Sequence record: MT446416.1
Reading direction: 5' to 3' (one strand)
From: Escherichia virus TH47
Length of the DNA: 64,000 nt
Shown: piece by piece, positions 36,818-46,650 of the stretch
Position numbering within the stretch: the first letter of the stretch is position 1
Layout: each line of letters starts with the position of its first letter
Position numbers and translations under genes: made by a program
Notes under the pieces: generated by a model
The model's database searches: none
What the model was told of the DNA's origin: nothing
What the model saw: only the letters and a program-made list of their open reading frames with translations

Positions 36818-37131
36818 TATATTTCAATCTCTATATATTCTTGGGTAATTAAGTAATCCCAGTAGTACTTCACTTGTTTTTGTATCTCAATTAAGGCATG
36901 AAAATTAATTCTCTTATCCCATATAAGTGATTCCTGAAAAAGAAATGTTTCATGATCATCTCTGTAATCACATTCAAGGAAGTCAGGAATATAATCACAA
37001 TCGTGAAGATATTCAATCATTAAAGATTCATTACATCTTCTAACGGCAAGGTGCTGGAAATTATCATGATCGAAGAAATACATTAAACTAATTATACCTG
37101 GAATGTACTGAATACTGTATAAGAATTTCAT
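36817..37131 (-). CDS. family-A paralog
   Basis: Motif ETFLFQESLIWDKR. Confidence 0.65.
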   Translation of the reverse strand: MKFLYSIQYIPGIISLMYFFDHDNFQHLAVRRCNESLMIEYLHDCDYIPDFLECDYRDDHETFLFQESLIWDKRINFHALIEIQKQVKYYWDYLITQEYIEIEI

Positions 37132-37571
37132 CGTTTACCCTTATATACTTCACATACATATTCATAATCCAAATAAAATCTTGTACTATCAATACTTTTA
37201 AAGTACCACATTATAACTAAAGTATCTAGTACTTCATCATCATACAAAGTACTATTCTGAAAGTAATACTCTTCACTATCCCACGGACCTTTCAGCACTT
37301 CAAAGTTCAATTTTAAAGGTCTGCTGCGATTATAAAAACGGATTTCACCACCATAAGCATAACTGATAAATTCTGCATCTGGATTGTATTGTGAAAAATC
37401 TGCGGGACTTTTGGAATTCAACCCAAGAATAACTGTAGTTGTAGCAAAATCACTATCCTTGTAGTAGTTACCATTCTCGGCTTTGTATACTTCTTCGAAC
37501 TTCCCAGCCTTGATATCTTCAATATATACCTGTAGTTCTTTTGCTTTATCCAGAGCACTTTGTAATGACAT
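37128..37571 (-). CDS. family-A paralog (MSLQSAL subfamily)
   Basis: Motif EEYYFQNSTL; shares N- and C-termini with the next three genes. Confidence 0.7.
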   Translation of the reverse strand: MSLQSALDKAKELQVYIEDIKAGKFEEVYKAENGNYYKDSDFATTTVILGLNSKSPADFSQYNPDAEFISYAYGGEIRFYNRSRPLKLNFEVLKGPWDSEEYYFQNSTLYDDEVLDTLVIMWYFKSIDSTRFYLDYEYVCEVYKGKR

Positions 37572-38037
37572 TATCTTCCCCTACAGTATTCTCTACGTAT
37601 TCATAATCGAAATAGAAACTACCAGAGCCAATACTTTTAAAGTACCACATAATTACAATAACATCTAATGCTTCTTCATTGTACACAGTACTTTGCTGGA
37701 AGTAATATTCTTCACTATCCCACGGGCCTTCCAGTACTGAATACGGAATGATTGTGTCATCATCATCGTAATCATGGCTGTAAATTATAATATCTTCATC
37801 GCTACAATAACTAATGTACTGATTGTACATATGATATTCACAGTCATCTGTATCACCCGTATCAGTGTGCAGTACTAACGTTTCTGCACATATCTCTGAC
37901 TCATCATAATCGTCACGATCTTTTACAAAAAATTCAGTATCAGATGTTTTATACACACCTGGAACTGAACCTTCTTGTACCATAATCATGTACTCATGAA
38001 TCTTCTTTGCTTCTTTCAATGCACTTTGTAACGACAT
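37546..38037 (-). CDS. family-A paralog (MSLQSAL subfamily)
   Basis: Motif EEYYFQQSTV. Confidence 0.7.
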   Translation of the reverse strand: MSLQSALKEAKKIHEYMIMVQEGSVPGVYKTSDTEFFVKDRDDYDESEICAETLVLHTDTGDTDDCEYHMYNQYISYCSDEDIIIYSHDYDDDDTIIPYSVLEGPWDSEEYYFQQSTVYNEEALDVIVIMWYFKSIGSGSFYFDYEYVENTVGEDNVITKCSG

Positions 38038-38480
38038 TACAAATCCCCTGTACTTAAATATTCACATGCTCCCCAGTCAAGAAAGAATGGATCGAAATTC
38101 AATTCCTTAAAGTACCACAACACAACCAAGGAATCAAGCATTTCTTGGTTAAAAATAAGACTCTGTTGGAAGTAATACTCTTCAGTACCCCACGGGCCGT
38201 CAAGTACCCCGAAGTCAATAGGTGTATTTGATGTGTCGAAAGTAATCTTAGTACCTGGAATATATACAAAAAAACTAGTATATTGACTACATGAAGAGTA
38301 CTGTATAGTATTGTCTTTATCATGGCCCATAAGTAAAATATCATCAGAGTATGTCTTTATACCTGATAGATAATACTCATTACCAAATGCACTTACTTTA
38401 TCACCATAGAAACCACTTTTTATGTTATCGTGGAAGTGATGTATTTTGTGGGCCAGTTTAAGTGCACTTGCTAAACTCAT
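38037..38480 (-). CDS. family-A paralog (MSLQSAL subfamily)
   Basis: Motif EEYYFQQSLI. Confidence 0.7.
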   Translation of the reverse strand: MSLASALKLAHKIHHFHDNIKSGFYGDKVSAFGNEYYLSGIKTYSDDILLMGHDKDNTIQYSSCSQYTSFFVYIPGTKITFDTSNTPIDFGVLDGPWGTEEYYFQQSLIFNQEMLDSLVVLWYFKELNFDPFFLDWGACEYLSTGDL

Positions 38481-38947
38481 ATATCCTCTTTAATAACTCG
38501 TAGTAGATCCAAGTCCAGATAGAAGCTAGGACAATCGGTATTATTAAAGTACCACAGAATGACAAGCTTGTCAAGCACATATTCCTCGTAGATAGTATTC
38601 TGCTGGAAGTAGAACTCTTCACTTCCCCAGTCATTATCCAGTACTGAATACGGAAGATGTTTTTCTGCTGCACCAGTTATAATGTCAGTATATTGTATTA
38701 AAATATCAGCATCACGACAGAAGCACATGTAATTATCTTCCAGATTAACATCACACCCAGTGAGTGTTGTTTCAGAAGAATCTAAGTTTTCTTCGTACAT
38801 GTGAATGTACTCACTACTGTCATCGTATATCATTCGACAATAAGCTTTACCTTCCTTGAATAGATACCCATTGAGTCGATTGAGTACTATTTCCTTTTTA
38901 CATAAATCAATTAACTTAGCAATTTCTAATGCTCTTGCAAAACTCAT
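38477..38947 (-). CDS. family-A paralog (MSLQSAL subfamily)
   Basis: Motif EEFYFQQNTI. Confidence 0.7.
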   Translation of the reverse strand: MSFARALEIAKLIDLCKKEIVLNRLNGYLFKEGKAYCRMIYDDSSEYIHMYEENLDSSETTLTGCDVNLEDNYMCFCRDADILIQYTDIITGAAEKHLPYSVLDNDWGSEEFYFQQNTIYEEYVLDKLVILWYFNNTDCPSFYLDLDLLRVIKEDI

Positions 38948-38948
38948 A

Positions 38949-44674: not shown

Positions 44675-45245
44675 AACTCAATACCTCCATTAAGCACTCA
44701 TAAACACCATCAATCGCATAAGCACAAAAATTGAAATTAATTTTGTGATTCTTGTGTAATGGACTATTGTGTACTGTACTAATAAGGACATTATAAAACA
44801 ACAAACGCACTGGTACAAGCATTGAACCTTGGAAAAATTCTTCCTCTGATTTATATGTATTGTACTCTATTGCTTTGTTCGTTTCTTTATCATATTTTAC
44901 CATTACTAACGGGGTATTTTTATTATACCATGCGTACTCTAAATCATTATTTCCAATAACAGCACCAGGGGAGAAATCCAAAAGACCAATAACACTACTT
45001 GCATTTGGTGTATATGGTGTATTGAATCGTTTATCAAAATGACTCGTGCACGCAATATGTGAATTAAAATCAGATGGTTTAAACCCTATGCACGCGTTAA
45101 TTATTCTTGTATATGGTTTTTTATTATGTGCTGCTTTCTGGGCATTATATAAGGCTGCAACAATACAAGCTAACTTTTGCCCCATAAGGATTGCATTAGC
45201 GTAGGTGTACTGAATATCATTGCTGGTACGGTACTTCGAGGTCAT
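44661..45245 (-). CDS. family-A paralog
   Basis: Motif EEEFFQGSML. Confidence 0.65.
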   Translation of the reverse strand: MTSKYRTSNDIQYTYANAILMGQKLACIVAALYNAQKAAHNKKPYTRIINACIGFKPSDFNSHIACTSHFDKRFNTPYTPNASSVIGLLDFSPGAVIGNNDLEYAWYNKNTPLVMVKYDKETNKAIEYNTYKSEEEFFQGSMLVPVRLLFYNVLISTVHNSPLHKNHKINFNFCAYAIDGVYECLMEVLSYEAE

Positions 45246-45528
45246 AATATTTCCTTTGCCATATCATGGGCTTAAAATCAATAACAGCTTTCTGTATCTT
45301 TTTTAATAATAAGACATCATAACCACCCGTGTCAATCACTAATTGCTGTTGGAACAATTCTTCATCGGATAATGTATTGAAATCTACAAAATAATCTGTA
45401 ACTATCGAATCATTTAAATGTGCCATGTACCAACCTGAACTTCTTGAATAAATCAAATTCCACCCATCGTCATCATCTTCTAATTCAACATAAATCATAT
45501 CTGGGGTATACATCATTTTATACTTCAT
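45217..45528 (-). CDS. family-A paralog
   Basis: Motif DEELFQQQLV. Confidence 0.65.
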   Translation of the reverse strand: MKYKMMYTPDMIYVELEDDDDGWNLIYSRSSGWYMAHLNDSIVTDYFVDFNTLSDEELFQQQLVIDTGGYDVLLLKKIQKAVIDFKPMIWQRKYYDLEVPYQQ

Positions 45529-46024
45529 AACTATATCCTTGCATCAAAATATCATAAACGTTTGAAAGGTACGGAATTTTGATATAAAATTTAAAACCCT
45601 TAATTAAAGGATTCGCGTACAATGAACTGAATAACTTTAGATAATGTATTTGACGAGGACTGTATAATAACGATTTCTGAAATAATTCAGAACTACAATC
45701 TGAACTAATATCAATTAAATCAATTCGTGCTTCTACTTCATCATTTTGTTTCAAATCATAAAAGAAATAATCGTTTGTGTTGACCCACAAATACCCTTCA
45801 CTATTTTCGTATATAACAGGAGATGCTTGTTCTGGATTGCCTTGGGCAAATGCTGCAAAACAAACTTTTGCATTACTTTCATCTTTAAACAAAAACGATA
45901 ATTTATCATATCTATCTTCTATGCGTAAATCACCTATATAAATGTACTTATACATAGAATGATTATTCTTGAGCATAAGCATTACTGTACTAATCTTGTG
46001 TGCTAATAATTCTATCTCATTCAT
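45518..46024 (-). CDS. family-A paralog (MNEIELLAHKIST pair)
   Basis: Motif SSELFQKSLL; near-identical termini with 46096..46650. Confidence 0.7.
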   Translation of the reverse strand: MNEIELLAHKISTVMLMLKNNHSMYKYIYIGDLRIEDRYDKLSFLFKDESNAKVCFAAFAQGNPEQASPVIYENSEGYLWVNTNDYFFYDLKQNDEVEARIDLIDISSDCSSELFQKSLLYSPRQIHYLKLFSSLYANPLIKGFKFYIKIPYLSNVYDILMQGYSYEV

Positions 46025-46039
46025 ATATTATTACCTATT

Positions 46040-46650
46040 GATGGATGCATCATCTTCTAATTCAACATAAATCATATCTTGGGGTATACATCATTTTATA
46101 CTTCATAACTGTATCCTTGCATTAAAAGATCATAAACTACATGGACTAAATTTAATTGAATATAAAATTTTAAACCTTTAATTAATGGATTCAAATGCAT
46201 TGTACTGAATAACATTAGATACATCATCTCATGCGGTTTTGTGATTAATGATTTTTGAAATACTTCAGCTTCATCATAAGGGTCTATGAACTGAAATTTG
46301 TCTTCATCATAATTTGTATTGGAATGCTGATATATAAAATAATCATCATTGGTATTGTACCACAAATACCCTTCGAATCCTGTACTAACATCTTTGGTCA
46401 ATGGGGATGCTGATACTGGATTTGAACTGATTAATGCACCTACATCAACAATCCCCGTTGTATCATATTCGATTTCATCATCAATGTCAATATCAATGTA
46501 TTTCCTTGCGATATCTGCGTTTATGGACAAATATAAACTACCACCTGTCCTCTGACTCAGGATTCCATCTATCTGCGATATAGGATGGTTGTTATTGAGG
46601 ATAAGCATTATTGTACTAATCTTGTGTGCTAATAATTCTATCTCATTCAT
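46040..46650. repeat. segmental tandem duplication of the 45480-46025 region
   Basis: Intergenic string catcatcttctaattcaacataaatcatatct(t)ggggtatacatcattttatacttcataact and the N- and C-terminal coding sequences recur in both copies. Confidence 0.6.
46096..46650 (-). CDS. family-A paralog (MNEIELLAHKIST pair)
   Basis: Motif EAEVFQKSLI. Confidence 0.7.
   Translation of the reverse strand: MNEIELLAHKISTIMLILNNNHPISQIDGILSQRTGGSLYLSINADIARKYIDIDIDDEIEYDTTGIVDVGALISSNPVSASPLTKDVSTGFEGYLWYNTNDDYFIYQHSNTNYDEDKFQFIDPYDEAEVFQKSLITKPHEMMYLMLFSTMHLNPLIKGLKFYIQLNLVHVVYDLLMQGYSYEV

What the first reader, a model, noticed from the sequence alone, without database searches (positions are those of the whole stretch)
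37128..46650. Recent duplications inside the family-A array
Four adjacent genes (37128-38947) share MSLQSAL... N-termini and ...LEGPWDSEEYYFQQS...IMWYFK... C-termini; three adjacent genes (39131-40204) share CNLNKGD...FQESLxFDKKYLCT; and 45480-46025 is duplicated at 46040-46650 including its intergenic junction. The array is therefore actively expanding by unequal recombination.
Basis: seen in the sequence. Interest (0 to 1): 0.5.

Follow-up and report, generated by a model that had tools for sequence, protein, structure and literature searches.

The report
Old tandem duplicates in jumbo-phage array
The three sets of look-alike neighbouring genes are real tandem duplicates inside a roughly 55-gene family of unknown function in an E. 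coli jumbo phage, but they are old and shared with related phages, so this genome shows slow gain, loss and swapping of genes and not an array that is expanding now.

Summary
The quartet (37128-38947), trio (39131-40204) and pair (45518-46024 / 46096-46650) are the only family-A paralogs with nucleotide-level similarity. The pair junction carries a 59-nt copy of the downstream gene's 5' end, which marks a head-to-tail duplication. "Recent" and "actively expanding" do not hold:
- Paralog dS is about 0.8 (pair), 1.0-1.2 (trio) and at least 1.7 (quartet). Ortholog dS is 0.07 to the nearest relative, WPEC3, and 0.2-0.3 to PBECO4.
- Every quartet copy has its own positional ortholog in four relatives.
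- WPEC3 has the same pair junction.
- No near-identical copies occur in any of five Asteriusvirus loci.

Copy number does differ between relatives (4 or 5, 3 or 4, 1 or 2), and the window is a mosaic of WPEC3-like and PBECO4-like gene cassettes. That fits birth-and-death evolution plus recombination at conserved gene ends.

The array itself is ancient. Klebsiella phage RaK2 has a syntenic array with the same invariant motif, [ST]-E-E-x-[YL]-F-Q-x-S. The family has no Pfam, NCBIfam or PDB relative, gives a confident AF2 model with no known fold, and lies downstream of consensus sigma-70 promoters. I infer that these are early host-interaction proteins; that is not shown.

The parts
21021..49425 (-). 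Family-A ('FQ family') array. About 55 tightly packed same-strand ORFs of 100-212 aa. 45 carry the invariant F-Q in [ST]-E-E-x-[LY]-F-Q-x-S-[LT]-[VIL]-[YHFW]-D, followed by 38-70 residues. Most of the others carry degenerate versions.
   Evidence: PHROG-only hits of unknown function; no Pfam or NCBIfam match
37128..38947 (-). Quartet of MSLQSAL-type paralogs (phrog_9317): 37128-37571, 37546-38037, 38037-38480, 38477-38947.
   Evidence: Paralogs are 31-42% aa identical with dS at least 1.7. Each copy has a positional ortholog at 71-99% aa in WPEC3, PBECO4, G17 and SP27.
38949..39134 (-). 61-aa non-family ORF. Together with trio member a it forms a 494-nt cassette (38960-39453) that replaces the PBECO4-type cassette, which holds a fifth quartet-type gene plus a different trio-type gene.
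39131..40204 (-). Trio of CNLNKGD-type short paralogs (phrog_15629): a 39131-39475, c 39472-39831, d 39818-40204. WPEC3 has four intact members (a, b, c, d), the window lacks b, and PBECO4 lacks a.
45217..45528 (-). 103-aa short family member downstream of the pair. Its first 58 nt are the source of the junction remnant. The allele is 100% aa identical to PBECO4, G17 and SP27 but only 52-55% to WPEC3.
45518..46024 (-). Pair copy 1 (168 aa). Its ortholog (95% aa) is present in WPEC3 and absent from PBECO4, G17 and SP27.
46025..46047 (-). Unique 23-nt junction (CATCCATCAATAGGTAATAATAT on the coding strand) between the remnant and copy 1. WPEC3 has the identical junction.
46048..46106 (-). Frameshifted 59-nt remnant of the 5' end of the 103-aa gene, carried along by the duplication. 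It matches 45471-45528 at 58 of 58 positions plus a 1-nt insertion.
46096..46650 (-). Pair copy 2 (184 aa). It is 97-99% aa identical to the single gene of PBECO4, G17 and SP27 and 54% to WPEC3's second copy.
43809..43869 (-). Terminator-like hairpin (43869-43848) followed by a sigma-70-like promoter (43837-43809, 11 of 12 matches with TG) in one of the few intergenic gaps of the array. G17 has a terminator annotated at the orthologous place.
47092..47120 (-). Perfect TTGACA-17-TATAAT match on the coding strand inside the array. This is a consensus match only.

Best explanation
The window comes from an Asteriusvirus-type (PBECO4/121Q-like) E. coli jumbo phage. The three clusters are genuine tandem paralogs inside a ~28-kb, ~55-gene, one-strand array of a phage-specific protein family.

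Shown:
- They arose by head-to-tail duplication of whole-gene units. For the pair, the unit was the gene plus the first 58 nt of the next gene.
- They are old. All three arose after the split from the RaK2 (Alcyoneusvirus) lineage. The quartet and trio arose before the radiation of the sampled Asteriusviruses. The pair arose long before the window and WPEC3 lineages separated.
- All copies are under purifying selection.
- The array as a whole predates the Asteriusvirus-Alcyoneusvirus split.

Inferred: since then the array has changed by loss or gain of whole genes and by exchange of allelic gene cassettes between related phages. Crossovers fall at the conserved gene ends (the N-terminal ~72 nt, and the C-terminal ~35 nt around the stop/start overlap). 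This is birth-and-death evolution plus modular recombination, not ongoing amplification.

Function (inferred, not shown): these are early, host-RNA-polymerase-transcribed, soluble and mostly acidic proteins. They share a scaffold in which a variable beta-sheet is packed against conserved helices, and the invariant ...S-E-E-x-[YL]-F-Q-x-S... segment is a short helix inside the fold. The likeliest role is a repertoire of host-interaction (take-over or anti-defence) proteins. I read the F-Q motif as a structural keystone, or possibly a shared docking surface.
For: - Identity of the phage: 92-93% nt identity over 98% of the region to phages WPEC3, CMSTMSU and vB_Ec-M-J; 35 Asteriusvirus records match.
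- Tandem origin.
- Age: paralog dS is 0.8, ~1.1 and at least 1.7; ortholog dS is 0.07-0.28 with dN/dS 0.19-0.38. Positional orthologs exist for each copy. WPEC3 has the identical junction. The maximum paralog identity in five loci is 84%.
- Gene-unit flux and mosaicism. Genes 35398, 45217, 46096, 48720 and 49081 are PBECO4-like (93-100% aa), while their neighbours are WPEC3-like.
- Ancient array: RaK2 has at least 28 members with the same motif upstream of rnlA. Window genes at 21-30 kb are collinear with RaK2 genes at 21-62% aa. The family profile finds 99 clusters (50% identity level) among 1.84 billion proteins, many of them only in metagenomes, and L005 is a metagenome contig with four tandem members.
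- Selection on the motif acts at protein level: TTT 25 / TTC 20, CAG 27 / CAA 18, and Ser encoded by AGY 18 / TCN 17.
- Fold: AF2 pLDDT is 86 and pTM 0.82-0.83 for a long and a short member. The motif lies in helix 109-115 (long) or 66-75 (short), where pLDDT averages above 90.
- Early context: seven perfect 12-of-12 sigma-70 promoters at 59.7-64 kb, and the six best matches inside the array, are all on the coding strand. Asteriusviruses have ~21-kb terminal repeats (PMC13070987), and in fEgEco12 the array begins ~8 kb inside the repeat. The RNA-repair genes PNKP and Rnl1 lie downstream.
Against: - Copy-number differences among close relatives show the array is not static. Low-frequency copy-number variants within a population cannot be excluded from one consensus sequence.
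- The 58-nt remnant is identical to its source, which on its face looks young. I explain this by allele exchange: both segments are PBECO4-type, and WPEC3's remnant has diverged. That explanation is an inference.
- The Nei-Gojobori dS values are rough in a 32% GC genome and are saturated for the quartet. Recombination can distort them.
- There are no expression, proteomic or phenotypic data for any member. The functional reading rests on context only.
- I could not inspect the model coordinates, so burial or exposure of F and Q is unknown.
Confidence: 0.75

Rival explanations
1. One reading: the array is expanding now by unequal recombination, and the three clusters are recent products.
For: Head-to-tail copies with a duplicated junction. 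Copy number varies among related phages. The junction remnant is identical to its source over 58 nt.
Against: Paralog dS is 0.8 to above 1.7, against 0.07 to the nearest relative. Each copy has orthologs in relatives, and WPEC3 has the same junction. No paralog pair exceeds 84% nt identity in five loci. Relative to its relatives the window has fewer copies in two of the three clusters.
Confidence: 0.07
2. Several second copies are not in-situ duplicates of their present neighbours. They are diverged alleles brought alongside by recombination with co-infecting relatives (cassette import), so the divergence between copies measures lineage divergence and not the time since duplication.
For: The window is a mosaic. 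Pair copy 2, the remnant and the 103-aa gene are PBECO4-type (99-100% aa), while copy 1 is WPEC3-type (95%). The second copy is present or absent within both allele groups. The cassette at 38960-39453 is swapped relative to PBECO4.
Against: The junction remnant proves an original in-situ tandem event for the pair, and the junction is identical by descent in WPEC3. Positional orthology of the quartet is clean in all relatives. I see this process as acting on top of old duplications, not replacing them.
Confidence: 0.25
3. The higher similarity at the gene ends (N-terminal 72 nt at 92%, C-terminal 225 nt at 80%) reflects ongoing gene conversion between neighbouring paralogs, so the copies could be even older than dS suggests.
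For: In the pair, dS is 0.2 over the first 25 codons against 1.2 in the middle. The last ~35 nt around the stop/start overlap are invariant in all five aligned sequences.
Against: Only 11 synonymous sites underlie the low N-terminal dS. The same ends are also conserved between orthologs and across phages, as expected from purifying selection on the N-terminal helix, the C-terminal module and the overlapping start of the next gene.
Confidence: 0.15
4. The invariant E-E-x-[YL]-F-Q-x-S motif is a protease processing site (it resembles the TEV site ENLYFQ|S/G and the HRV-3C site LEVLFQ|GP). Each protein would be cut into an N-terminal domain and a ~50-aa C-terminal peptide.
For: The match to the ExxYxQ(G/S)-type consensus is strict in some members, for example EEGYFQGS at 35931-36377 and in RaK2. 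F-Q is invariant, with protein-level selection. The distance to the C-terminus is constant. The comparison with TEV and 3C sites comes from my own knowledge.
Against: In both AF2 models the motif is a helix inside a confidently folded domain (mean pLDDT above 90 in that region), not an exposed linker. Conservation continues for 6 residues past Q in a hydrophobic pattern typical of a packed segment. The residue after Q is often large (Y, L, W, E). No cognate protease was identified, and none was searched for.
Confidence: 0.07

Closest known systems
Terminal multigene families of large eukaryotic DNA viruses (ASFV MGF110/360/505; poxvirus terminal host-range families and 'genomic accordions')
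   Same: Dozens of same-orientation paralogs lie near a genome end. Copy number differs between isolates. Growth and shrinkage occur by unequal recombination, and the copies are divergent yet selected. The comparison rests on my own knowledge of those systems.
   Different: There is no sequence or fold relationship. Here no near-identical copies exist, whereas poxvirus accordions are transient arrays of identical units. Function is unknown here, while MGFs and poxvirus families are documented immune or host-range factors.
Lineage-specific expansions in other jumbo phages, e.g. ~35 copies of a zinc ribbon in Bacillus phage G (PMC7824862), and the statement that ~10% of RaK2 proteins are paralogs (PMC3622015)
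   Same: Large paralogous families of small proteins of unknown role in jumbo phage genomes. RaK2's paralogs include this very family.
   Different: Neither paper describes this family, its motif or its array structure. The phage G expansion is an unrelated domain.
PHROG families 9317, 15629, 19795 and 12674 (all 'unknown function')
   Same: The quartet, trio, pair and neighbouring genes match these profiles at E = 1e-31 to 1e-94.
   Different: PHROGs splits one superfamily into many small unannotated families. The common motif and fold link them.
Host-takeover or immediate-early gene blocks next to terminal repeats (Bacillus phage SPO1 terminal-redundancy module, T5 pre-early region, T4 early genes)
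   Same: Many small genes sit on one strand at or near a long terminal repeat and are preceded by consensus host-type promoters with individual terminators.
   Different: Those blocks consist mostly of unrelated genes, not one 55-member family. Timing has not been measured for Asteriusvirus.
TEV NIa and picornavirus 3C protease recognition sites
   Same: The sequence pattern E-x-x-[YL]-F-Q followed by a small or polar residue.
   Different: The predicted context is a structured helix. The motif extends beyond Q, and no such protease is known in these phages. This is a resemblance only.

Membership tests
Tandem (head-to-tail) segmental duplication by unequal or illegitimate recombination | Copies adjacent, in the same orientation and in register | tested here: met
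Tandem (head-to-tail) segmental duplication by unequal or illegitimate recombination | The junction between copies contains a fragment of flanking sequence from the original unit boundary | tested here: met
   Met for the pair: 46106-46048 repeats 45528-45471. No such remnant was seen for the quartet or trio, whose genes abut or overlap.
Tandem (head-to-tail) segmental duplication by unequal or illegitimate recombination | Copies closer to each other than to any other family member or to outgroup members | tested here: met
Recent or ongoing amplification ('genomic accordion') | Near-identical copies (dS near 0, nt identity above ~95%) | tested here: not met
   Best whole-gene nt identity is 0.68 and best local identity 80-92%. 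dS is 0.8 to above 1.7.
Recent or ongoing amplification ('genomic accordion') | Copies absent from the closest relatives (lineage-private) | tested here: not met
   All nine genes have orthologs in WPEC3, and WPEC3 shares the pair junction.
Recent or ongoing amplification ('genomic accordion') | Copy-number heterogeneity within one phage population | not testable with these tools
   Needs long-read data from a lysate.
Birth-and-death multigene family | Copy number differs between related genomes through gain and loss of whole genes, and the retained copies are under purifying selection | tested here: met
   Copy numbers are 4 vs 5, 3 vs 4 and 1 vs 2. dN/dS is 0.19-0.38.
Rak2-like jumbo-phage 'FQ family' (defined here) | A 100-210-aa protein with invariant F-Q in [ST]EEx[YL]FQxS[TL][VIL][YH], 38-70 residues from the C-terminus, found in a same-strand array | tested here: met
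   All nine genes of the finding fit. So do 45 of 55 genes in the array, at least 28 genes in RaK2 and 99 clusters worldwide.
TEV/3C-type protease substrate | Matches the recognition consensus (E-x-x-Y-x-Q followed by G or S) | tested here: inconclusive
   Some members match strictly (EEGYFQGS). Most have L at P3 and a bulky P1'.
TEV/3C-type protease substrate | Site located in an exposed, flexible linker | tested here: not met
   In two AF2 models the motif is a helix in a region where pLDDT averages above 90.
TEV/3C-type protease substrate | A cognate protease is encoded or present, and cleavage products are observed | not tested
   The whole genome was not scanned and there are no proteomics data.
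SUKH / SMI1-KNR4-type immunity-protein arrays (considered because they form tandem paralog arrays) | Profile or fold match to SUKH/SMI1_KNR4 | tested here: not met

The most novel reading that the evidence does not exclude
The ~55-gene array (at least 28 genes in RaK2, and more in uncultured relatives) may be a previously undescribed hallmark of Rak2-like jumbo phages. It would be a repertoire of early proteins on an orphan scaffold that displays a hypervariable beta-sheet. The invariant acidic-aromatic F-Q helix would be a common functional handle: a docking site for one shared host or phage partner, or a processing site. The family would then act as a set of interchangeable adaptors or inhibitors aimed at many host targets (defence systems or take-over targets), kept diverse by cassette recombination.
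Probability: 0.2. Interest if true: 0.7.

Novelty: new member of a known kind. Interest (0 to 1): 0.35.

Why it matters
The finding as stated, tandem duplicates in a viral multigene family, is an ordinary mode of large-virus genome evolution. The specific claim of ongoing expansion fails.

What is worth keeping is the family itself. About 8% of a ~350-kb phage genome is spent on one uncharacterized family with an orphan predicted fold and a strictly invariant F-Q motif. The family is conserved across at least two genera, and the RaK2 paper (PMC3622015) notes only unspecified paralogy. It sits in what appears to be the early, first-expressed end of the genome.

If these proteins prove to be host-interaction or anti-defence factors, the array would be a rich source of new inhibitors. 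It would also be a clean bacterial-virus parallel to the ASFV and poxvirus multigene families. The copy-number and allele mosaic among the 33 sequenced relatives gives a ready comparative data set for linking gene content to host range.

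Tried and rejected
- The Foldseek afdb50 library was unavailable.
- I could not fetch the long metagenomic contigs that carry distant members. The motif alignment was too degenerate for the search for related loci. tblastn of two distant members against isolated phages found nothing.
- Hypothesis: WPEC3's extra trio member is a recent a/c hybrid made by unequal crossover, as overlapping BLASTN HSPs suggested. Rejected: it is an intact, distinct gene orthologous to PBECO4's first trio member and only ~43% identical to a and c.
- Hypothesis: the motif is conserved because of an embedded DNA or RNA signal. Rejected: synonymous codons vary freely, and Ser uses both codon families.
- Literature searches found no description of this family. 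The main text of the phAPEC6 virion proteome paper lists no proteins from this gene range. That is weak negative evidence, because I did not read the supplementary tables.
- Region-wise dN/dS gave no sign of positive selection in the variable middle: 0.25-0.33 between orthologs and ~0.45 between the pair copies.

Full report
**What the window is.** The region 37128-46650 matches 35 phage records, all E. coli or Salmonella jumbo phages of the PBECO4/121Q type (genus Asteriusvirus, 347-386 kb). The best match is WPEC3, at 92.9% identity over 98% of the query. Almost every plausible gene in the 64-kb window is on the minus strand.

**Checking the observation.**
- The four genes at 37128-38947 begin MSLQSAL / MSLASAL / MSFARAL and end with ...GPWDSEEYYFQQS...IMWYFK...
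- The three genes at 39131-40204 share CNL(N/Y)KGD and LFQESLxFDKKY(L/I)CT.
- 45518-46024 and 46096-46650 share both termini.

A nucleotide self-comparison of 20-52 kb gives only 20 HSPs. Within family A nearly all of them fall inside these three clusters:
- 45471-45690 vs 46048-46268: 79.6% over 225 nt
- 45954-46025 vs 46580-46651: 91.7% over 72 nt
- 37155-37299 vs 37594-37738: 79% over 145 nt
- 39575-39663 vs 39939-40027: 85% over 89 nt

Codon-aligned identity is 0.49-0.57 (quartet), 0.57-0.62 (trio) and 0.68 (pair). The other 980 family pairs give 0.459 +/- 0.031.

The duplicated junction is real and informative. After the stop codon of 46096-46650, positions 46106-46048 repeat the first 58 nt of the downstream 103-aa gene (45528-45471), with one inserted A that breaks the frame. 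A unique 23-nt junction follows, and then the ATG of 45518-46024. That is the footprint of a head-to-tail duplication whose unit was the gene plus the start of the next gene.

**How old the duplications are.** Nei-Gojobori synonymous divergence between copies is at least 1.7, i.e. saturated, for the quartet, 1.0-1.2 for the trio and 0.8 for the pair. Within the pair it is 0.2 in the first 25 codons (only 11 synonymous sites), 1.2 in the middle and 0.7 in the C-terminal part. For family genes that are at least 80% identical between genomes, orthologs differ by dS 0.07-0.08 from WPEC3 and 0.19-0.28 from PBECO4, with dN/dS 0.19-0.38.

tblastn against four relatives shows that each quartet copy has its own positional ortholog at 71-99% aa identity, while the paralogs are 33-44% identical. 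The pair's junction sequence is identical in WPEC3, so it records one ancestral event. Self-comparison of the window and of four Asteriusvirus loci finds no paralog pair above 84% identity over a gene. "Recent" is not supported.

**Copy number and alleles do vary between relatives.**
- PBECO4, G17 and SP27 carry a fifth quartet-type gene, 59% identical to 37546-38037, where the window and WPEC3 have a 61-aa ORF.
- The window cassette 38960-39453 replaces an 822-nt cassette in PBECO4.
- The trio is a set of four intact genes in WPEC3. The window lacks member b and PBECO4 lacks member a.
- The pair-type gene has two copies in 13 of 33 phage records and one copy in the rest, and both states occur within both allele types.
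- The window is a mosaic. Most array genes are 90-99% identical to WPEC3, but 35398, 45217, 46096, 48720 and 49081 are closer to PBECO4, at 93-100%.
- In the pair region, copy 2, the remnant and the 103-aa gene are PBECO4-type, while copy 1 is WPEC3-type. The switch falls exactly at the conserved stop/start overlap. This explains why the 58-nt remnant is identical to its source without any recent duplication. In PBECO4 the two are the same sequence, and WPEC3's remnant has diverged.
- I infer that the conserved gene ends serve as homology arms for unequal crossover (loss or gain of units) and for allele exchange. The 58-nt direct repeat flanking copy 1 also offers a simple route to the one-copy state.

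**The array is ancient.** Forty-five of about 55 genes between 21.0 and 49.4 kb carry an invariant F-Q within [ST]-E-E-x-[LY]-F-Q-x-S-[LT]-[VIL]-[YHFW]-D, with 38-70 residues after it. Most of the rest carry degenerate versions.

Codon use shows the selection acts on the protein: TTT 25 / TTC 20, CAG 27 / CAA 18, and Ser encoded by both AGY and TCN codons.

A profile of the motif and C-terminal region finds 99 clusters (50% identity level) among 1.84 billion proteins. All are 55-202 aa. In those that are not short fragments the match lies in the C-terminal half. About half have little or no similarity to the Asteriusvirus loci, and they come from metagenome contigs. One 2.1-kb contig holds four tandem members.

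Klebsiella phage RaK2 belongs to a different genus (its RnlA is 64% identical). It has a syntenic array upstream of rnlA with at least 28 members bearing TEEGYFQxSTLY-type motifs. Window genes at 21-30 kb are collinear with RaK2 genes at 21-62% aa identity. In contrast, the quartet, trio and pair find their best hits within the window (41-47%) and not in RaK2 (27-34%).

The three clusters are therefore the youngest duplications in an old array. They arose after the Asteriusvirus/Alcyoneusvirus split. The quartet and trio arose before the sampled Asteriusviruses diverged, and the pair arose long before the window and WPEC3 lineages separated.

**What the proteins are.** There is no Pfam or NCBIfam match, only PHROGs of unknown function, and no PDB sequence relative.

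AlphaFold2 models are confident.
- The long member 37546-38037 has pLDDT 85.9 and pTM 0.82. It has an N-terminal helix, about seven strands, a short helix 109-115 that is the EEYYFQQ motif, helix 121-135, a strand and a last helix.
- The short member 39472-39831 has pLDDT 86.1 and pTM 0.83. It has five strands, helix 66-75 containing ELFQ, helix 84-100 and a final strand.

The proteins are mostly acidic, with a median pI of 4.9.

The motif looks like a TEV or 3C protease site (my own knowledge). However, it sits in a confidently predicted helix inside the fold, and its conservation continues as a hydrophobic pattern past Q. I therefore favour a structural-keystone role or a shared docking role over cleavage.

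**Context and likely role.**
- Upstream in the direction of transcription, at 55-64 kb, small genes are separated by repeated modules. Each module is a GC-rich hairpin followed by a consensus promoter.
- Seven perfect TTGACA-16/17-TATAAT matches lie on the coding strand at 59.7-64 kb.
- Inside the array, the six best promoter-like matches are also all on the coding strand. One of them follows a terminator-like hairpin in the gap at 43.8 kb.
- Asteriusviruses have ~21-kb direct terminal repeats (PMC13070987, PMC11895373). In fEgEco12 the finding region maps to 31.0-40.7 kb.
- By extrapolating those coordinates, the order from the physical end is terminal repeat, family B, family A.
- Downstream lie the RNA-repair genes PNKP and Rnl1 and a GIY-YIG endonuclease-like gene.
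- I infer early, host-polymerase-driven expression and a host-interaction (take-over or anti-defence) role. No experiment bears on this, and I found no description of the family in the literature. The RaK2 paper notes only that ~10% of its proteins are paralogs.

**Verdict.** The mechanism of origin, tandem duplication by unequal recombination, is supported. The claim that the duplications are recent and that the array is actively expanding is not supported. The phenomenon is a known kind: birth-and-death evolution of a viral multigene family, with modular recombination. The family itself is uncharacterized and moderately interesting.

Noticed in passing
window 49415-55170, plus pairs at 35033-35420 and 47330-47787: A second multigene family ('family B'): at least 17 ORFs of 63-97 aa with an [LV]G[TS]xxQ[ED] motif. 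Median pI is ~8 and there is no Pfam hit. It contains the most similar paralogs in the window (51180-51419 vs 51626-51865, 78% over 241 nt). Two pairs of family-B genes are embedded inside the family-A array.
   Followed up: partly
window 55000-64000 (e.g. 63948-63921, 63636-63609, 63302-63275, 62191-62164, 60543-60516, 60203-60176, 59773-59745): Repeated intergenic modules precede almost every small gene. Each has a GGGGAG...CTCCCC-type hairpin followed by a perfect sigma-70 promoter (TTGACA-16/17-TATAAT) with AGTACT in the spacer. Seven 12-of-12 matches are found, all on the coding strand. This looks like an immediate-early region at or inside the terminal repeat.
   Followed up: partly
window 4327-7951: T4-type RNA-repair genes lie downstream of the arrays: polynucleotide kinase/phosphatase (5054-5986, PF25109, E = 6.5e-40) and RNA ligase 1 (6809-7951). 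A weak GIY-YIG/NUMOD3 endonuclease-like ORF sits at 4327-5067.
   Followed up: partly
window 35931-36377 (EEGYFQGS) and the whole family; L007 24043-38061: The family motif coincides with the TEV (ENLYFQ|G/S) and HRV-3C (LEVLFQ|GP) protease recognition patterns. Several members would match the textbook TEV consensus exactly.
   Followed up: partly
window 35398-35934, 45217-45528, 46096-46650, 48720-49425: Gene-sized patches are 93-100% aa identical to PBECO4-type phages, embedded in a WPEC3-like backbone (90-99%). Patch boundaries coincide with gene boundaries, which suggests cassette exchange between co-infecting relatives.
   Followed up: partly
L007 (RaK2, JQ513383.1 238000-287500), locus 24043-38061 and scattered members at 7583-16686: Klebsiella phage RaK2 has a syntenic array of at least 28 FQ-family genes upstream of rnlA. 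Two interspersed non-motif genes are much better conserved than the FQ genes: window 21021-21494 and 23370-23783 match RaK2 at 60-62% aa.
   Followed up: partly
L005 (ENA metagenome contig, 2117 nt): Four tandem family members with a shared MTQYELDLQYAK N-terminus and TEExxFQxSL motifs, from an uncultured relative with no match among isolated phages.
   Followed up: partly
window 44435-44501 (inside the non-motif gene 44333-44674) and 41205-41246: Imperfect palindromes were detected by self-BLAST (79% over 68 nt and 81% over 42 nt). Their significance is unknown.
   Followed up: no
window 58074-58715: A 213-aa ORF in the promoter-rich region has weak, sub-threshold protein-kinase hits (PF00069, E = 0.0018). 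It could be an early kinase in the style of T7 gp0.7.
   Followed up: no
L001 (WPEC3) 30776-31470 and 26501-27150: WPEC3 carries tandem paralog pairs of short family members. The pair at 30780-31474 is 84% nt identical over 342 nt, the highest paralog identity seen in any locus. At 26501-27150 WPEC3 has two copies of the 103-aa gene that is single in the window. I did not check whether the window has one or two genes at the position matching 30776-31470.
   Followed up: partly
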